64,000 nucleotides of DNA from an uncultured Solirubrobacterales bacterium. Lineage in GTDB: Bacteria > Actinomycetota > Thermoleophilia > Solirubrobacterales > 70-9. Numbering within the stretch: the stretch's first letter is position 1; each line of letters begins with the position of its first letter. A program made the position numbers and the translations under genes. Positions 13,233 through 64,000 of the stretch are shown piece after piece. The notes beneath the pieces were generated by a model that worked only from the letters and a program-made list of their open reading frames with translations, did not search any database and was not told the DNA's origin. Location: positions 2,066,110 through 2,130,109 of the forward strand of contig OY970245.1 of the NCBI GenBank assembly GCA_963715455.1. Direction: 5' to 3'.

Positions 13233-13925
13233 TCATGGCGAACCCCCCTCTTTGCTTGCAGTGAAGAAGGCCATCGCGCCTTCGACTGCGATTTCGTAGG
13301 AAGCGAACTCACCCGCGAGGGCGGCTTCCAAGTCGTCCCTGTGGTCGTGCAAGTTGTTGAAGACACCCCGCTGGTTGAGCAGCCGCATGACCAGGCGCGA
13401 ACGCCGGGTGTGGGCGACGCCCTCATTGAGCACGGAGCAGCCGAACAAGCGGCCACCGGGCGCCAGCGCCGCCCGGGCGTACTTGAAGGCGACCGCCTTC
13501 TCGCGCATCGATCCGGGTGCGCAGTTGAGAACGTTGCAGAGTGCCACCGAGTCGAAGGATCCGTCGGGCACACCCCAGGGGGCGAGCACGTTGGCCTGGA
13601 GCGTCTGCGGCCGATAGCGCCGCAGACGCCGAGAAGCGAAGACAAGCGGGTCCGGGTTGATGTCGACCAGCGTGATCTGCGGCTCGGCCCCCGGGAAGCG
13701 ACAGCGGTCGAGCAGGTAACCGGTGCCGATACCGACGTCGAGATGGCGGTCGGAAACGTTTTGGTCATAGAGGGCGAGCAGCTGCCGCACCGAGCAGCGC
13801 CAGAAGAGTGGGCAATCGATGCGGTAAGCGATCAGGTCGTAAAGGCGCAGCATCCTGGGCGAGTAGTAGGCCTGGCCCGCGTAGGCGGGGTCTGTCTTCG
13901 GCACCCTGGTCCACCTCTCGCTCAC
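13233..13925 (-). CDS. class I SAM-dependent methyltransferase
   Basis: Motif I is [12 protein letters not shown], followed by an acidic loop (VDIN) and motif post-I/II ([10 protein letters not shown]). Its GTG start (13923-13925) overlaps the TGA stop (13922-13924) of the last PKS gene. The codons between 13925 and the first ATG (13853) are GC3-rich. The tracked 386-aa ORF is an artefactual extension. Confidence 0.8.
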
Positions 13926-16900
13926 CGCGCCTGCACCCCCGCAGTCACGCCGCCGAGCGTCACGCCGAGGGCATCCTCGACGGCCTGGGCGGTCGCATCG
14001 GCGTGCTCGGTCATGATCGTGAAGTGGTTGCCAGGCACGTCGATCGCGGTGTGCGGCAGATCCCAGGCGGCCTGCCAGCGATCGGGGTCGTCGTCCTCCA
14101 TGGTCGACATCGGCTGACTGGCCCTGGCGAGGATCACCGGGGCGCTGAGCTCGGCCGGTCGCCAATCGGCGAAGAGGCGGAAGTAGGCCATCATCGCCGT
14201 GAGCCGATTGTCGTCGAGCGGTAGCACCTCCTGGTCGGCCGAGAAGAGCGAGCGCATCAGCGACGGTGTGAGCCACCCCAGCCCACCGTCCTCGCTGAGG
14301 TATGTGTCCAGCAGGACGACGGCGGCTGGCGTCATCCCAAGGCTCTCGAGGCGCTCGGCGACTGCGTGGGCGAGCCAGCCCCCGGACGAACAACCGACCA
14401 GCGCCGCCCCCTCGCGTCGCTCGCTGGTCAGGATCGTTTCGGCCAGAGCCAGGGCCAGGGCTTCGACGCTGTCCGGCAAGAGCTCGCCGGCGAGGAAGCC
14501 CGGCGCTGGCACGGCCACCGCCCGCCGCCTACCGCGGAAGCGCCTGGCGAACCGCACGTATTCCAGCGGGCCGGAGATCGCCATGATCGAGGGGAAGAGG
14601 AAGAGCTCCGGGGTCTCCTCACCTTCGGCGAGCACGATCGGCTGCGGCGCCTGCTGCGGCGCTGCCGCCGCGTCGAATGACCCACGGAAGCGAGAAGCGG
14701 CGCCGATCAGCTCGACCAGCTCAACCGCATCGCCATCCTCCTCGGCACCCTGCAGGAGGGTGAGGAAGGTACTCGGCGGGCCGGCGGCCGCGCCGGCGCT
14801 GACCGTGCCCTCAAGCTCGGCGAGTAGATGCTGGGCGATCTCGGCGACGCTGGGCTGGCTCGCCAGGACCGCGACCGGCAAGTTGGCGCCGCTCGCCGCG
14901 ATCACTCGTTTGCGCAGCTCCATCGCACCGACCGAGTCGAAGCCCAGCTCGAGCAGCTTCTGCTCTGGCTCGATGTCCTCGGGGCTGGCATGGCCGAGCA
15001 GAGTGGCGGCCTGCTGGCGAACCAGTTCGAGCAACGACGCCTCACGCTCCTCCGTCGACATCGCGGCGAGGCGCTGGGCAAGCGAGCCGTGAGAGCGCTG
15101 ACGGCGGACCCCACTGCCCACCGAGTCGGTCGGCGCGGCCTGGCGCTGGTCGACCATGTCGGGGACCTCCTCGGCGAGCGGCTCGACGACGATCGCCTCG
15201 ACCGAGAGGATCGGAGCGCCGCCGGGCTCGTAAGCGACGAAACCGCCCCCCTCCTCATCCGCCCCGCAGACGCGTAGCGAAGCGACGCCCGGGCGATAGA
15301 GGCGAACGCCTCGCCAAGAGACCGCCCGCGATCTGGCCCCTTCCTCCGCGCCCGGCCGACCGGCCTCGCGACCGGCTTCCAGCAAGGCCGGATGCAAGCC
15401 GAAGCGCCCGGCTGCCTGGGCCAGCTCCCCAGCGAGCGAGATCTCGGTGAACTGCGGCCAGCTCTGCAGCGGTTCGGCGAAGGTCGCTTGCTCGCCACTC
15501 AGCAGGCCATGGGCATGGAGCGCCCAGCCCGCCTCACCGGGGTCGGCATCAGACCTGGCGTGGACCGAGACTCGCTGCTGCCCCCCCTCCCCGGGACTGG
15601 CGATCGAGACACGCAGCTGGACCGCGCCCTGCGCGGGCAGGACCAGCGGCTCGACCAGGCTGAGCTCCGCGATCGAGTCGCAGCCAGCCTCGAGCCCTGC
15701 GCGCAGGGCAAGCTCGACGAACACGGCTCCCGGCAGGGCCCCAGCGTCGAGCGGCATCTCGTCGGCCAACCAGGGCTGCGTCTGGAGCGAGACGCGCCCA
15801 GTGAGCACCACGCCTTCGTCGTCGGGAAGCTCGACCACTGCGCCGAGCAGCGGGTGGGCGGCATCGGTGAGGCCGATCGAGGCGGGGTCCCCGGCTCCTT
15901 GGGAGGCCGAGAGCCAGTAGCGCTGGCGTTGGAAGGGGTAGGTGGGCAGGGGGACTCGCTTGGCATTCGTGCCCTTGAAGAAGCTGGGCCACTCGATCGG
16001 GATGCCGGCGGTGTGGGCGGTGGCCAGGGCGAGGGCGAGGGCCTGGGCCTCGGGGCGGCCCTGGCGCAGGGTGGGCGCGAAGGCCGCTTGGGCCTCGCCG
16101 CCATCCAGGCACTCCTGGGCCATCGGGATCAAGACCGGGTCGGGGCCGAGCTCCAGGTAGGCGCTGGCGCCCTGGGCGGCGAGGGCTTTGACCCCGTCGG
16201 TGAAGCGCACGGGTTGGCGCACGTGGGCGACCCAGTAGGCGGGGTCGGTGGCCTGCTCTGGGCTGAGCAGCTCGCCGGTCAGGTTGGAGACGATCGGGAT
16301 CTGGGGCGGGCTGTAGGGGATGGAGTTGGCGAGCTGGGCGAACTCTTCGAGCATCGGCTCGATCAGGGGCGAGTGGAAGGCGTGGGAGACGACCAGGCGC
16401 TTGGTCTTTGCGCCCTGCTCGCTGAACTGGGCGGCGAGGGCTTCGACGGCCTGCTGCTCACCGGAGATGACGACCGAGGAGGGGCCGTTGATCGCCGCGA
16501 TCGAGAGCTGGGCCTCTTTGCCCTCGATCGCCTCGGCCACCTCTGCCTCGCTGGCGCCGATCGCCACCATTGCCCCACCGCTGGGCAGCTCTCCCATCAG
16601 CTTGCCGCGAGCGGCAACCAGCTTGGCGGCGTCGGGCAGTGAGAAGACCCCGGCGAGGTGGGCGGCGGCGAGCTCGCCGATCGAGTGCCCGCAGAGCAGC
16701 TCGGGCCTCAGGCCTTTGCTCTCCAAGAGTCGGTAGAGGGCGACCTCGAGGGCAAAGAGCGCCGGCTGGGCGTAGGTGGTGTCGTCGAGCAGCTCGGCGT
16801 CTTTGCCGAAGAGCACCTGCGCCAGCGGTATGTCGAGGTGGGGGTCGAGCGCCTCGCAGAGCGCATCGAAGGCTTGGGTGTAGGGGGGGTGGGTCTCATA

Positions 16901-63600: not shown

Positions 63601-64000
63601 GCCGGGTCGATGCCGGCCGTCTCCAGCGCCTCCCAGGAGGCCTCGAGCAGCAGGCGCTGCTGGGGGTCCATGGCCAGCGCCTCGCGCGGGGCGATGCCGA
63701 AGAACTCGGCGTCGAAGTCGGGAGCGTCGTGGAGGAAGCCGCCGTGGCGCGCATAGGAAGTTCCCGAGTTGCCGGGGTCCGGGTCGAAGAGCCGCTCGAG
63801 GTCCCAGCCACGGTTCTCGGGGAAGCCGGAGATCGCGTCGCGGCCCTCAGCGATCAGCCTCCAGAGCTCCTCCGGAGAGGAGACGCCGCCCGGGTAGCGG
63901 CAGGCCATGCCGGCGATCGCGATCGGCTCACGGTTGCGTGCCTCCATCTCGCCGATCCGGCGCTGGGCGCGGTCGAGGTCCGAGGTCGCCCGCTTGAGGT
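40368..64000 (-). CDS. giant type I PKS, four modules in the window: 3 x (KS-AT-DH-ER-KR-ACP) + KS-AT-DH-KR-ACP; N-terminus just outside the window
   Basis: A single open frame of more than 7870 codons stays open from 63947 up to position 64000. It contains four full KS motif sets. Three ATs carry GHSQGE...VDYAAHS and one carries GHSIGE...VSHAFHS. There are four DHs. Three ERs carry LNFRDV...HAGAGGVG. There are four KRs and four ACPs ([11 protein letters not shown]). The C-terminal docking tail is [15 protein letters not shown]. Confidence 0.96.
45666..51740 (-). other. PKS module A3: KS-AT(GHSQGE/YAAH)-DH-ER(no Tyr fingerprint)-KR-ACP
   Basis: The YAAHS codons are at 49557-49571. The ER reads ALGFEVPG (47583-47591). 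The next KS begins at DEPIAILGM (45660-45665). Confidence 0.85.
51741..57866 (-). other. PKS module A2: KS-AT(GHSQGE/YAAH)-DH-ER-KR-ACP
   Basis: The YAAHS codons are at 55659-55673 and the ER Tyr codon at 53661-53663. The next KS begins at EEPIAILGM (51735-51740). Confidence 0.85.
57867..64000 (-). other. PKS module A1: KS-AT(GHSQGE/YAAH)-DH-ER-KR-ACP
   Basis: The next KS begins at DEPIAIVGM (codons 57861-57866). The YAAHS codons are at 61731-61745 and the ER Tyr codon at 59790-59792. Confidence 0.85.

What the first reader, a model, noticed from the sequence alone, without database searches (positions are those of the whole stretch)
13922..64000. Five-gene, nine-module type I PKS line predicting a branched-alkyl / pentaene / beta-keto acid product; incomplete at the right edge
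All five PKS genes lie on the minus strand with no intergenic gaps. Read colinearly:
- A1-A3 are fully reducing (KS-AT-DH-ER-KR-ACP) and carry methylmalonyl-like ATs ([23 protein letters not shown]).
- A4, B, C1, C2 and D are each KS-AT-DH-KR-ACP, giving five consecutive enoyl-forming modules. Four have malonyl-type ATs ([19 protein letters not shown]); C1 has an atypical AT.
- E is KS-AT-(dead DH)-ACP-TE with no KR.

Every KR carries the xxD (LDD/LED/VDD/LAD) fingerprint of B-type KRs, which fits trans double bonds. The implied product is a deoxypropionate-like saturated stretch, then a conjugated pentaene (possibly with one branch), then an unreduced 3-oxo acid. That would be a chromophoric lipid-like polyketide. 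I do not recognise this domain string as a known pathway, but I cannot search databases from here.
Basis: partly seen in the sequence, partly recalled or inferred. Interest (0 to 1): 0.75.

Follow-up and report, generated by a model that had tools for sequence, protein, structure and literature searches.

The report
Orphan nine-module polyene polyketide synthase

Summary
Five minus-strand genes, joined by overlapping stop and start codons, encode nine cis-AT type I PKS modules.
- A1-A3: KS-AT-DH-ER-KR-ACP, with methylmalonyl-like ATs.
- A4, B, C1, C2, D: KS-AT-DH-KR-ACP. Four ATs are malonyl-type. C1 has an atypical AT (GHSQGE/IPSH).
- E: KS-AT-degenerate DH-ACP-TE, with no KR.

All catalytic motifs are intact. 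All eight KRs are B-type.

Gene A runs off the window. It begins with a docking helix, so the loading module, and possibly more modules, are unseen.

One is a 230-aa SAM methyltransferase whose start overlaps E's stop. The other is a 258-aa alpha/beta hydrolase.

The PKS/methyltransferase/hydrolase arrangement sits next to GH15, ctaG, tig and clpP. It recurs at the same chromosomal place in several uncultured Solirubrobacterales MAGs and soil metagenome contigs, with varying modules.
- Every methyltransferase-bearing relative has a non-reducing terminal module with TE.
- A crotonyl-CoA carboxylase/reductase gene is present only where a non-malonyl, non-methylmalonyl AT occurs.

The predicted product is a 14,16,18-trimethyl-8-alkyl-3-oxo-4,6,8,10,12-pentaenoic acid, probably methylated afterwards.

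No close characterised homologue was found. MIBiG could not be searched. Verdict: a new member of a known kind, of modest interest.

The parts
40368..64000 (-). PKS gene A, four modules. It is cut at its 5' end by the window edge. The visible N-terminus is a docking helix followed by KS1.
   Evidence: The reading frame is open to base 63998. [17 protein letters not shown] aligns with the D and E docking helices.
57873..63947 (-). Module A1: KS-AT(GHSQGE/YAAH)-DH-ER-KR-ACP.
   Evidence: Pfam, motif alignments, domain coordinates.
51744..57872 (-). Module A2: KS-AT(GHSQGE/YAAH)-DH-ER-KR-ACP.
45669..51743 (-). Module A3: KS-AT(GHSQGE/YAAH)-DH-ER-KR-ACP. Its ER has Val where the A1 and A2 ERs have Tyr.
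40371..45668 (-). Module A4: KS-AT(GHSIGE/HAFH)-DH-KR-ACP, followed by a C-terminal docking tail ([14 protein letters not shown]).
34928..40378 (-). PKS gene B, one module: KS-AT(HAFH)-DH-KR-ACP. The likely start is the ATG at 40378 ([13 protein letters not shown]), which overlaps the end of A by 11 nt.
29652..34931 (-). Module C1 of gene C: KS-AT(GHSQGE/IPSH, atypical)-DH-KR-ACP. The AT lies at 32250-33209.
   Evidence: The AT is 63-70% identical to the IASH/IPSH/FASH/VASH clade and 55% identical to the cluster's own YAAH ATs.
24183..29651 (-). Module C2 of gene C: KS-AT(HAFH)-DH(HxxxD variant)-KR-ACP.
18640..24186 (-). PKS gene D, one module: KS-AT(HAFH)-DH-KR-ACP.
13922..18643 (-). PKS gene E, the terminal module: KS-AT(HAFH)-degenerate DH (15167-15880)-ACP (14819-15031)-TE (13925-14656). 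There is no KR.
   Evidence: The TE has GCSSG, Asp and His. E is 100% identical to P0001, which lies on a 2,668,048-bp contig.
13233..13925 (-). Class I SAM-dependent methyltransferase, 230 aa. Its GTG overlaps E's TGA. An alternative GTG at 13904 gives the 223-aa P0241.
   Evidence: GC3 frame analysis, ORF, Pfam Methyltransf_12/11, homologues and N-terminal alignment, conserved position in L026, L046, L077, L079 and L080.
12407..13183 (-). Alpha/beta-fold hydrolase, 258 aa, 47 nt downstream of the methyltransferase. The 453-aa ORF listed mechanically is an overcall.
   Evidence: Orthologues of 241-262 aa in L009, L046, L026, L077, L080 and L081.

Best explanation
The region is the downstream ~50 kb of a functional, colinear, cis-AT modular type I polyketide synthase operon. 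The operon reads A-B-C-D-E-methyltransferase-hydrolase. It lies on the chromosome of an uncultured, small-genome Solirubrobacterales bacterium.

**Proposed route (inferred from domain content).**
1. An acyl chain arrives from an unseen upstream protein through a docking interaction.
2. A1-A3 extend it three times with methylmalonyl units and reduce each fully, giving three deoxypropionate units.
3. A4, B, C1, C2 and D extend it five times. Each round includes B-type ketoreduction and dehydration, giving five conjugated, probably trans, double bonds.
4. The third of these (C1) carries a side branch from a non-malonyl, non-methylmalonyl extender.
5. E adds one malonyl unit without reduction, and its TE releases the chain.

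**Product.** The nascent product is a 19-substituted 14,16,18-trimethyl-8-alkyl-3-oxo-nonadeca-4,6,8,10,12-pentaenoic acid. The translationally coupled methyltransferase then most likely O-methylates the 3-oxo-acid end, either as a methyl ester or as an enol ether (beta-methoxyacrylate type). This would stabilise an otherwise decarboxylation-prone beta-keto acid. The hydrolase is an accessory esterase or thioesterase.

**Shown versus inferred.** Shown: gene and domain content, intact catalytic motifs, operon structure, and conservation of the locus. Inferred: substrate choices, colinearity, double-bond geometry, the methyltransferase's target, and the end product.

**Confidence.** The identity as a working modular PKS segment is about 0.9. 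The colinear scaffold is about 0.55. The methylation of the 3-oxo-acid end is about 0.4. The stated 0.65 is an overall figure.
For: **Domain architecture.** Pfam and my own HMM map.

**Catalytic motifs.**
- All nine KS have Cys/His/His.
- DH His, GYxYGPxF, DxxxH and LPFxW are present in A1 to D and lost in E.
- The KRs have NADPH-binding, Lys, Ser, Tyr and Asn motifs and the B-type xxD motif. The ERs have the HAxAGGVG motif. The ACPs have GFDS. The TE has GCSSG, Asp and His.
- AT fingerprints.

**Operon.** Stop and start codons overlap from A through to the methyltransferase.

**Methyltransferase and hydrolase.**

**Conservation.** Orthologous or syntenic loci have the order PKS-TE / MT / (CCR) / hydrolase / RTX-like / STAS / HTH / GH15 / CtaG / tig / clpP. 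They are L026, L046, L009, L076/L077, L079 and L080. In L079, D is 79% identical and E is 63% identical.

**Co-variation.**
- All six MT-bearing loci end in a non-reducing module with TE. L009 ends in a fully reducing module without TE and has no MT.
- CCR (TIGR01751, 486-495 bits) is present only where a VASH, FASH or GASH AT occurs. It is absent in the window and in L046 (HAFH) and L026 (YAAH).

**Integrity.** The modules have diverged from one another (DH 49-71%, KS 70-83% identity). They are therefore not assembly duplicates.
Against: - Nothing upstream of A1 is visible, so the starter, the total chain length and any upstream hydroxyl or amine are unknown.
- Three junctions share one docking class, so protein order is not enforced by docking class alone.
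- The YAAH and IPSH AT motifs are not benchmarked specificity signatures. No CCR is visible in the window to supply an unusual extender for C1.
- C2's DH has HxxxD instead of HxxxG.
- Sequence cannot decide whether the TE hydrolyses or cyclises.
- The methyltransferase has no informative characterised relative. The best PDB sequence hit has E = 0.007. Fold hits are generic, with TM 0.5-0.65. Its more distant homologues are not PKS-linked.
- The sequence comes from a metagenome-assembled genome, and there are no expression or chemical data.
Confidence: 0.65

Rival explanations
1. The same assembly line makes a macrocyclic polyene (macrolactone or macrolactam). The TE would cyclise onto a hydroxyl or amine installed by the unseen starter or upstream modules, instead of hydrolysing to a linear acid.
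For: Gene A starts with a docking helix, so at least one more PKS protein lies upstream. Runs of KS-AT-DH-KR-ACP modules are typical of polyene macrolide and macrolactam synthases (established knowledge). JGI named one relative 'pimaricinolide synthase PimS1', but that is only an automatic label.
Against: None of the nine visible modules leaves a hydroxyl. Syntenic relatives begin with plain KSQ-AT-ACP loading modules and show no amino-acid-starter genes, glycosyltransferases or P450s in the 7 kb upstream. A methyltransferase conserved with the non-reducing terminal module fits a free carboxyl or enol end better.
Confidence: 0.15
2. The proteins do not act in gene order, or some modules are skipped or used iteratively. 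The real product would then differ in length or pattern from the colinear prediction.
For: The A to B, C to D and D to E junctions use near-identical C-terminal tails (EE[LM][LF]E[FL]ID) and N-terminal helices (LRxYL...). Docking class alone would therefore allow other orders. KS identities do not resolve substrate classes.
Against: All six genes are translationally coupled in one order, and the TE protein is last. The B to C junction has its own docking class. The closest orthologue, L079, keeps the D-E-MT order.
Confidence: 0.12
3. The cluster is a decaying, silent or misassembled locus that makes no product.
For: The source is a MAG. PKS repeats are prone to misassembly. E carries a degenerate DH remnant.
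Against: About 50 kb of uninterrupted reading frames, with every catalytic motif intact. The modules are clearly diverged from each other. Orthologous genes of the same lengths occur in independent metagenomes: 1849 and 1575 aa in L079 against 1848 and 1573 aa here. The degenerate DH in a terminal module lacking a KR is conserved in L046, L079 and L080.
Confidence: 0.03

Closest known systems
Uncharacterised syntenic PKS loci of uncultured Solirubrobacterales. MAGs: OY969794.1, OY970304.1, DASYIY010000021.1. JGI soil contigs: Ga0679452_0000562, Ga0207641_10000077, Ga0075325_1000089.
   Same: They occupy the same chromosomal neighbourhood (GH15, ctaG, tig, clpP). They share the PKS-TE / methyltransferase / hydrolase order and are dominated by polyene-forming DH-KR modules. 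In L079, D is 79% identical and E is 63% identical.
   Different: Module number and reductive pattern vary between loci. The terminal AT is IASH, FASH or VASH and is accompanied by a CCR gene in several relatives, whereas here it is malonyl-type with no CCR. One relative (L009) ends in a fully reducing module with no TE and no methyltransferase. None has been characterised.
Actinomycete cis-AT modular type I PKSs (the DEBS paradigm; polyene macrolide synthases such as the pimaricin and nystatin synthases).
   Same: They share the domain set, the order within modules, docking helices between subunits, a terminal TE, and runs of KS-AT-DH-KR-ACP modules that make conjugated polyenes (established knowledge; Pfam).
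   Different: There are no KR-only (polyol) modules. No glycosyltransferase, P450 or sugar genes occur on the visible side. The terminal module is non-reducing. Identity to named Streptomyces PKSs is only 46-65% over partial lengths. The host is a Thermoleophilia-type lineage with a genome of about 2.7 Mb.
Haliangicin pathway (hli) of Haliangium ochraceum: a polyene with a beta-methoxyacrylate end (PMC6163206).
   Same: A type I PKS makes a conjugated polyene, and a stand-alone O-methyltransferase is encoded in the cluster. This is an analogy for how the methyltransferase here could act.
   Different: [quoted passage not shown] None of these is seen here. No sequence relationship was tested. 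The regiochemistry of methylation here is unknown.
Mycobacterial multimethyl-branched lipid synthases (Mas, Pks2, PpsA-E).
   Same: Methylmalonyl extension with full reduction gives deoxypropionate units. They are chromosomal lipid-type PKSs of Actinomycetota (established knowledge).
   Different: Mas and Pks2 are iterative single modules. Here three separate modules do the job and are followed by a pentaene segment. Loading by FadD-type enzymes could not be tested, because that region lies off the window.
BelI / CysG carboxyl O-methyltransferases of belactosin and cystargolide biosynthesis (PDB 9fce; PMC11408123).
   Same: This is the nearest solved structure by sequence to the window's methyltransferase. 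It is a small-molecule carboxylate O-methyltransferase of the class I fold.
   Different: E = 0.007 and about 21% identity over 124 residues. The Foldseek TM-score is about 0.5. This is a lead only, not evidence of shared function.

Membership tests
cis-AT modular type I PKS | Each module has a KS with the Cys-His-His catalytic triad. | tested here: met
   DTACSS, HGTGT and NIGH are present in all nine KS. Pfam ketoacyl-synt E-values are 1e-88 to 1e-96.
cis-AT modular type I PKS | An AT domain is integrated in every module, with the GHSxG active site. | tested here: met
   There are nine Acyl_transf_1 hits, one per module, each with GHS(Q/I)GE.
cis-AT modular type I PKS | Each module has an ACP with the phosphopantetheine-attachment Ser. 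Reductive domains sit between the AT and the ACP. | tested here: met
   GFDS(L/V) is present in nine PP-binding domains. The DH/ER/KR order is canonical.
cis-AT modular type I PKS | A loading module primes the line. | not testable with these tools
   It lies beyond the window edge. The source contig is not on record in the look-up of encoding contigs. Genome and metagenome scans found no orthologue of the A start. Related lines use KSQ-AT-ACP loading modules.
cis-AT modular type I PKS | A chain-release domain ends the line. | tested here: met
   The Thioesterase domain covers residues 1346-1558 of E and has GCSSG, Asp and His.
Polyene macrolide PKS (pimaricin/nystatin type) | A polyol-forming run of KR-only modules, with a macrolactonising hydroxyl. 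| tested here: not met
   Every KR-containing visible module also has an intact DH. No KR-only module is present. Upstream modules are unseen.
Polyene macrolide PKS (pimaricin/nystatin type) | Mycosamine, glycosyltransferase and P450 tailoring genes are in the cluster. | tested here: inconclusive
   None is present on the downstream side, which holds housekeeping genes from 12.4 kb leftward. The upstream side is not visible.
Beta-methoxyacrylate polyketides (haliangicin / myxothiazol type) | A terminal beta-keto (enol) is generated by a non-reducing last module. | tested here: met
   E lacks a KR and has a dead DH.
Beta-methoxyacrylate polyketides (haliangicin / myxothiazol type) | An O-methyltransferase methylates the enol oxygen. 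| not testable with these tools
   A class I SAM methyltransferase is coupled to E. Its acceptor atom cannot be read from sequence or fold.
Mycobacterial Mas-type multimethyl-branched fatty acid synthases | A single iterative module (KS-AT-DH-ER-KR-ACP) is used repeatedly. | tested here: not met
   Three separate, diverged fully reducing modules (DH 68-71%, ER 66-74% identity) sit in one protein.

The most novel reading that the evidence does not exclude
The locus belongs to a lineage-wide, chromosomally fixed polyene-lipid pathway of streamlined (2.5-2.9 Mb) uncultured soil Solirubrobacterales. The pathway would diversify by swapping modules, ATs and the CCR gene. Its conserved combination of a non-reducing terminal module with a coupled methyltransferase would build a beta-methoxyacrylate-like or beta-keto-ester polyene. 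That would be a new chemotype, and the first modular PKS product from this order, possibly a respiratory-chain inhibitor or a photoprotective membrane pigment.
Probability: 0.2. Interest if true: 0.6.

Novelty: new member of a known kind. Interest (0 to 1): 0.33.

Why it matters
If the prediction holds, the cluster specifies an undescribed methyl-branched polyenone lipid from an order with no characterised modular polyketide; two literature searches found none.

The cluster takes up about 2% or more of a genome of roughly 2.7 Mb. It also sits at a conserved chromosomal site in related MAGs. Both points suggest a physiological role, such as a pigment, a membrane lipid or a competitive weapon, and not a recently acquired accessory trait.

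The natural series of syntenic variants (AT swaps that co-vary with CCR; a terminal module with or without TE and methyltransferase) could also serve as a comparative set for PKS evolution and engineering.

Even so, orphan modular PKS clusters are found by the thousand in MAG catalogues, and nothing in the enzymology here is unexpected.

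Tried and rejected
1. **Extending the window.** Exact-protein look-ups for E, P0001, D and the hydrolase returned 'not on record'.
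2. **Recovering full-length A.** A protein search with A's first 700 residues returned only proteins of 1221 aa or shorter and no self-hit.
3. **Genome scan.** The source genome is not among the GTDB representatives. The best KS identity was 78%.
4. **Metagenome scan for an orthologue of the A start.** The top hit, L084 (78%), is a malonyl/DH/KR module and not A1-like, so it says nothing about what precedes A.
5. **Methyltransferase function.** Pfam and NCBIfam give only generic class I hits, with BioC-like similarity far below cut-off. The best PDB sequence hit has E = 0.007. A confident AlphaFold model (pLDDT 92.8) matched only generic methyltransferases, including CurJ C-MT, PE N-MT, SpnF and BelI. 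Homologues at 53% identity or less in L082 and L083 are not next to PKS genes. The Streptomyces rubellomurinus homologue lies near a PKS, but in a different arrangement.
6. **The hydrolase as a BioH-like or CurM-TE-like enzyme.** Only weak, partial matches were found, so no specific assignment was made.
7. **The 453-aa 'hydrolase' ORF.** I rejected it as an overcall on GC3 and orthologue lengths.
8. **KS identity matrix as a test of colinearity.** It was uninformative.
9. **Literature.** Nothing was found on Solirubrobacterales modular PKSs.
10. **tRNA scan.** None found.

Full report
**1. Observation**

The window is high-GC (66-75%). It contains five long minus-strand ORFs:
- A: 40368 to beyond 63947
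- B: 34928-40453
- C: 24183-34931
- D: 18640-24186
- E: 13922-18643

I split the proteins at the EPIAI(V/L)GM KS starts and scanned each module separately against Pfam. I then mapped every domain with HMMs built from the window itself.

| Modules | Domains |
|---|---|
| A1-A3 | KS-AT-DH-ER-KR-ACP |
| A4, B, C1, C2, D | KS-AT-DH-KR-ACP |
| E | KS-AT-(PKS_DH_N only)-ACP-Thioesterase |

Domain E-values lie between 1e-10 and 1e-96, so chance is not an issue.

**2. Catalytic competence**

- **KS.** All nine carry DTACSS, HGTGT and NIGH.
- **DH.** A1 to D keep the catalytic His (LADHxxxGxxxxPG; C2 reads HAVFD), GYxYGPxF, DxxxH and LPFxW. In E the His is Glu ([14 protein letters not shown]), the GYxYGPxF block is deleted, DxxxH reads EAGRE, and LPFxW reads RAVSW. 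'Dead DH' is correct.
- **KR.** All eight have the Rossmann motif, Lys/Ser/Tyr/Asn, and the B-type motif: LED, LAD, LAD, VDD, LDD, LDD, LDD, LED. By the established rule, a B-type KR followed by a DH usually gives trans olefins.
- **ER.** All three have HA(G/A)AGGVG. A1 and A2 have Tyr in ALGLYPG, and A3 has Val (ALGFEVPG). From memory of the Kwan et al. ER rule, and with low confidence, the C14 methyl would have the opposite configuration to the C16 and C18 methyls.
- **TE.** It has GCSSG, Asp and His.

AT signatures:

| Modules | Motifs | Reading |
|---|---|---|
| A1-A3 | RLD(I/V)[23 protein letters not shown] | Methylmalonyl-like |
| A4, B, C2, D, E | [19 protein letters not shown] | Malonyl |
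| C1 | [27 protein letters not shown] | Atypical |

YAAH is the usual variant in this lineage: 33 of 138 ATs in the window and the related loci carry it. The C1 AT is 63-70% identical to an IASH/IPSH/FASH/VASH clade in related loci, but only 55% identical to the cluster's own YAAH ATs. That argues for an extender other than malonyl or methylmalonyl.

**3.

The stop and start codons overlap at every junction:
- A/B by 11 nt; B's real start is the ATG at 40378, reading [13 protein letters not shown]
- B/C share GTGA
- C/D and D/E share ATGA

GC3 frame analysis shows that the 453-aa 'hydrolase' ORF is an overcall. Between E and the hydrolase lies a separate gene, 13233-13925, whose GTG overlaps E's TGA. 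It is a class I SAM-dependent methyltransferase (Methyltransf_12/11). It is 100% identical to P0241, and the N-termini of its homologues support the longer start. The true alpha/beta hydrolase is 12407-13183 (258 aa), 47 nt further on and preceded by a GAGAGG ribosome-binding site.

Left of the hydrolase the genes are housekeeping or unrelated: RTX-like, STAS, ArsR-type HTH, GH15, CtaG, a fused MFS/spermidine synthase, trigger factor, ClpP, an M23 peptidase, a GNAT and ClpX. The cluster's downstream border is therefore at about 12.4 kb.

**4. The right edge**

The A frame is open for 17 codons beyond the first in-window ATG. These read [17 protein letters not shown], which aligns with the N-terminal docking helices of D ([17 protein letters not shown]) and E. 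The intra-protein ACP-KS linkers look quite different. A therefore probably starts about 10 codons outside the window. It must receive its substrate from an upstream protein that carries at least the loading module.

All attempts to see that region failed.

**5. Source and relatives**

E and the methyltransferase are identical to proteins on one unnamed NCBI/ENA contig of 2,668,048 bp. The nearest KS relatives (70-78%) are almost all uncultured Solirubrobacterales MAGs of the MFD series, several with complete chromosomes of 2.5-2.9 Mb.

Searching the fetched loci with the window's flanking proteins found the same neighbourhood in several places:
- L026 (OY969794.1), L046 (DASYIY010000021.1) and L009 (OY970304.1)
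- soil-metagenome contigs L076/L077, L079 and L080/L081, found by looking up methyltransferase homologues

The common order is PKS-TE / MT / (CCR) / hydrolase / RTX-like / STAS / HTH / GH15 / CtaG / tig / clpP. L079 is the closest relative: it has a D orthologue of 1849 aa (79% identical) and an E orthologue of 1575 aa (63% identical).

Module strings differ between these loci. The site therefore holds a diversifying family of polyene-type PKSs.

Two co-variations are informative.
1. All six methyltransferase-bearing loci end in a non-reducing module with TE. The forms are KS-AT-DH°-ACP-TE, KS-AT-ACP-TE, or KS-AT-DH°-KR°-ACP-TE, where ° marks a degenerate or partial domain. L009 ends in KS-AT-DH-ER-KR-ACP without TE and has no methyltransferase.
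2. A crotonyl-CoA carboxylase/reductase gene (TIGR01751, 486-495 bits against a cut-off of 378.55) sits between the MT and the hydrolase where the terminal AT is VASH or FASH. L009, whose penultimate AT is GASH, has a shortened copy (360 bits, below the cut-off). The gene is absent in the window and in L046 (malonyl HAFH) and L026 (YAAH). L079 (IASH) has a gene start in that position, but the contig ends there.

In the relative whose line can be followed to its start (L007), the genes upstream of the PKS are a PucR-type regulator, a carboxyltransferase, a metallophosphoesterase and an Sfp-type PPTase. The loading modules of related lines are KSQ-AT-ACP.

**6. Mechanism**

Reading the line colinearly and numbering from the carboxyl end:

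| Step | Action | Result |
|---|---|---|
| E | Adds C1-C2, no reduction | C3 stays a ketone |
| D | Extension, KR, DH | C4=C5 |
| C2 | Extension, KR, DH | C6=C7 |
| C1 | Extension, KR, DH | C8=C9, with the C1 branch on C8 |
| B | Extension, KR, DH | C10=C11 |
| A4 | Extension, KR, DH | C12=C13 |
| A3, A2, A1 | Methylmalonyl extension, full reduction | Methyls at C14, C16, C18; methylenes at C15, C17, C19 |

The unknown upstream chain follows C19. The nascent product is therefore a 14,16,18-trimethyl-8-alkyl-3-oxo-4,6,8,10,12-pentaenoic acid, that is, a pentaenone chromophore on a branched alkyl tail.

Free beta-keto acids decarboxylate readily (established chemistry). The conserved pairing of a non-reducing terminal module with a translationally coupled methyltransferase makes methylation of that end the most economical reading. 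The product could be a methyl ester or an enol methyl ether.

The acceptor atom cannot be called. The best PDB sequence hit is the carboxyl O-methyltransferase BelI, at E = 0.007 (PMC11408123). The fold hits are generic.

Haliangicin, a tetraene with a beta-methoxyacrylate end whose cluster also encodes a stand-alone O-methyltransferase, is a functional analogy only (PMC6163206).

The hydrolase matches only generic esterases and thioesterases.

**7. Caveats and rivals**

- The TE might cyclise onto an unseen upstream nucleophile.
- Three junctions share one docking class, so gene order, not docking, supports colinearity.
- Skipping or iteration cannot be excluded.
- The AT calls rest on motifs.
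- Misassembly is unlikely. The modules have diverged, and independent metagenomes contain orthologues of the same lengths.

**8. Novelty and verdict**

No close characterised homologue was found. Two literature searches found nothing on modular PKSs of this order. MIBiG and antiSMASH were not available, so novelty is provisional.

In kind, this is a textbook cis-AT modular PKS: a new member of a known kind. The points of modest interest are:
- the host, an uncultured Solirubrobacterales lineage with a small genome that devotes 2% or more of its DNA to this line
- the conserved chromosomal site, with its natural AT/CCR/terminal-module variants
- the conserved association of a methyltransferase with the non-reducing terminus

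Interest is 0.33.

Noticed in passing
window 12407-13768 (-): The mechanically listed 453-aa ORF is an overcall. GC3 and orthologue lengths show two genes in different frames: a methyltransferase (13233-13925) and a 258-aa hydrolase (12407-13183).
   Followed up: yes
L077 10713-11972; L080 4412-5653; L009 16440-17432: Relatives carry a crotonyl-CoA carboxylase/reductase gene between the methyltransferase and the hydrolase. It is present only where a VASH, FASH or GASH AT occurs in the last modules. It is missing in the window, where the terminal AT is malonyl-type. L009 has a shortened copy that scores below the family cut-off.
   Followed up: partly
window 32250-33209 (-); L011 and L020: The rare GHSQGE/IPSH AT of module C1 recurs in two other Solirubrobacterales loci. 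It clusters with IASH ATs, which also serve KSQ loading modules. Its substrate is unknown, and no CCR is visible in the window.
   Followed up: partly
L001-L048: Uncultured Solirubrobacterales MAGs with chromosomes of 2.5-2.9 Mb carry several large PKS regions, for example three in OY970321.1 and more than 50 kb in CAVYPC010000002.1. These are dominated by KS-AT-DH-KR-ACP modules. That is a heavy polyene-PKS load for such small genomes.
   Followed up: no
window 6093-7772 (-): A fused MFS transporter/spermidine synthase (NF037959, 205 bits) lies between ctaG and the trigger-factor gene.
   Followed up: no
window 10512-12391 (+): An ArsR-type HTH (10512-10847), a 90-aa ORF, a STAS-domain protein (11206-11691) and an RTX-repeat protein (to 12391) converge on the PKS operon. 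The same set is conserved in L077 and L080. A regulatory link to the cluster is possible but was not tested.
   Followed up: no
L078 (Streptomyces rubellomurinus JZKH01000060.1): A 44%-identical methyltransferase homologue lies next to an acyl-CoA dehydrogenase and a 2654-aa PKS on the opposite strand. This is a different arrangement from the Solirubrobacterales loci.
   Followed up: no
window 40368-64000, modules A1-A3: The ATs of A1-A3 are 91-93% identical to each other. Their DH, ER and KR domains are only 66-74% identical. This pattern suggests AT-specific gene conversion within the gene.
   Followed up: no
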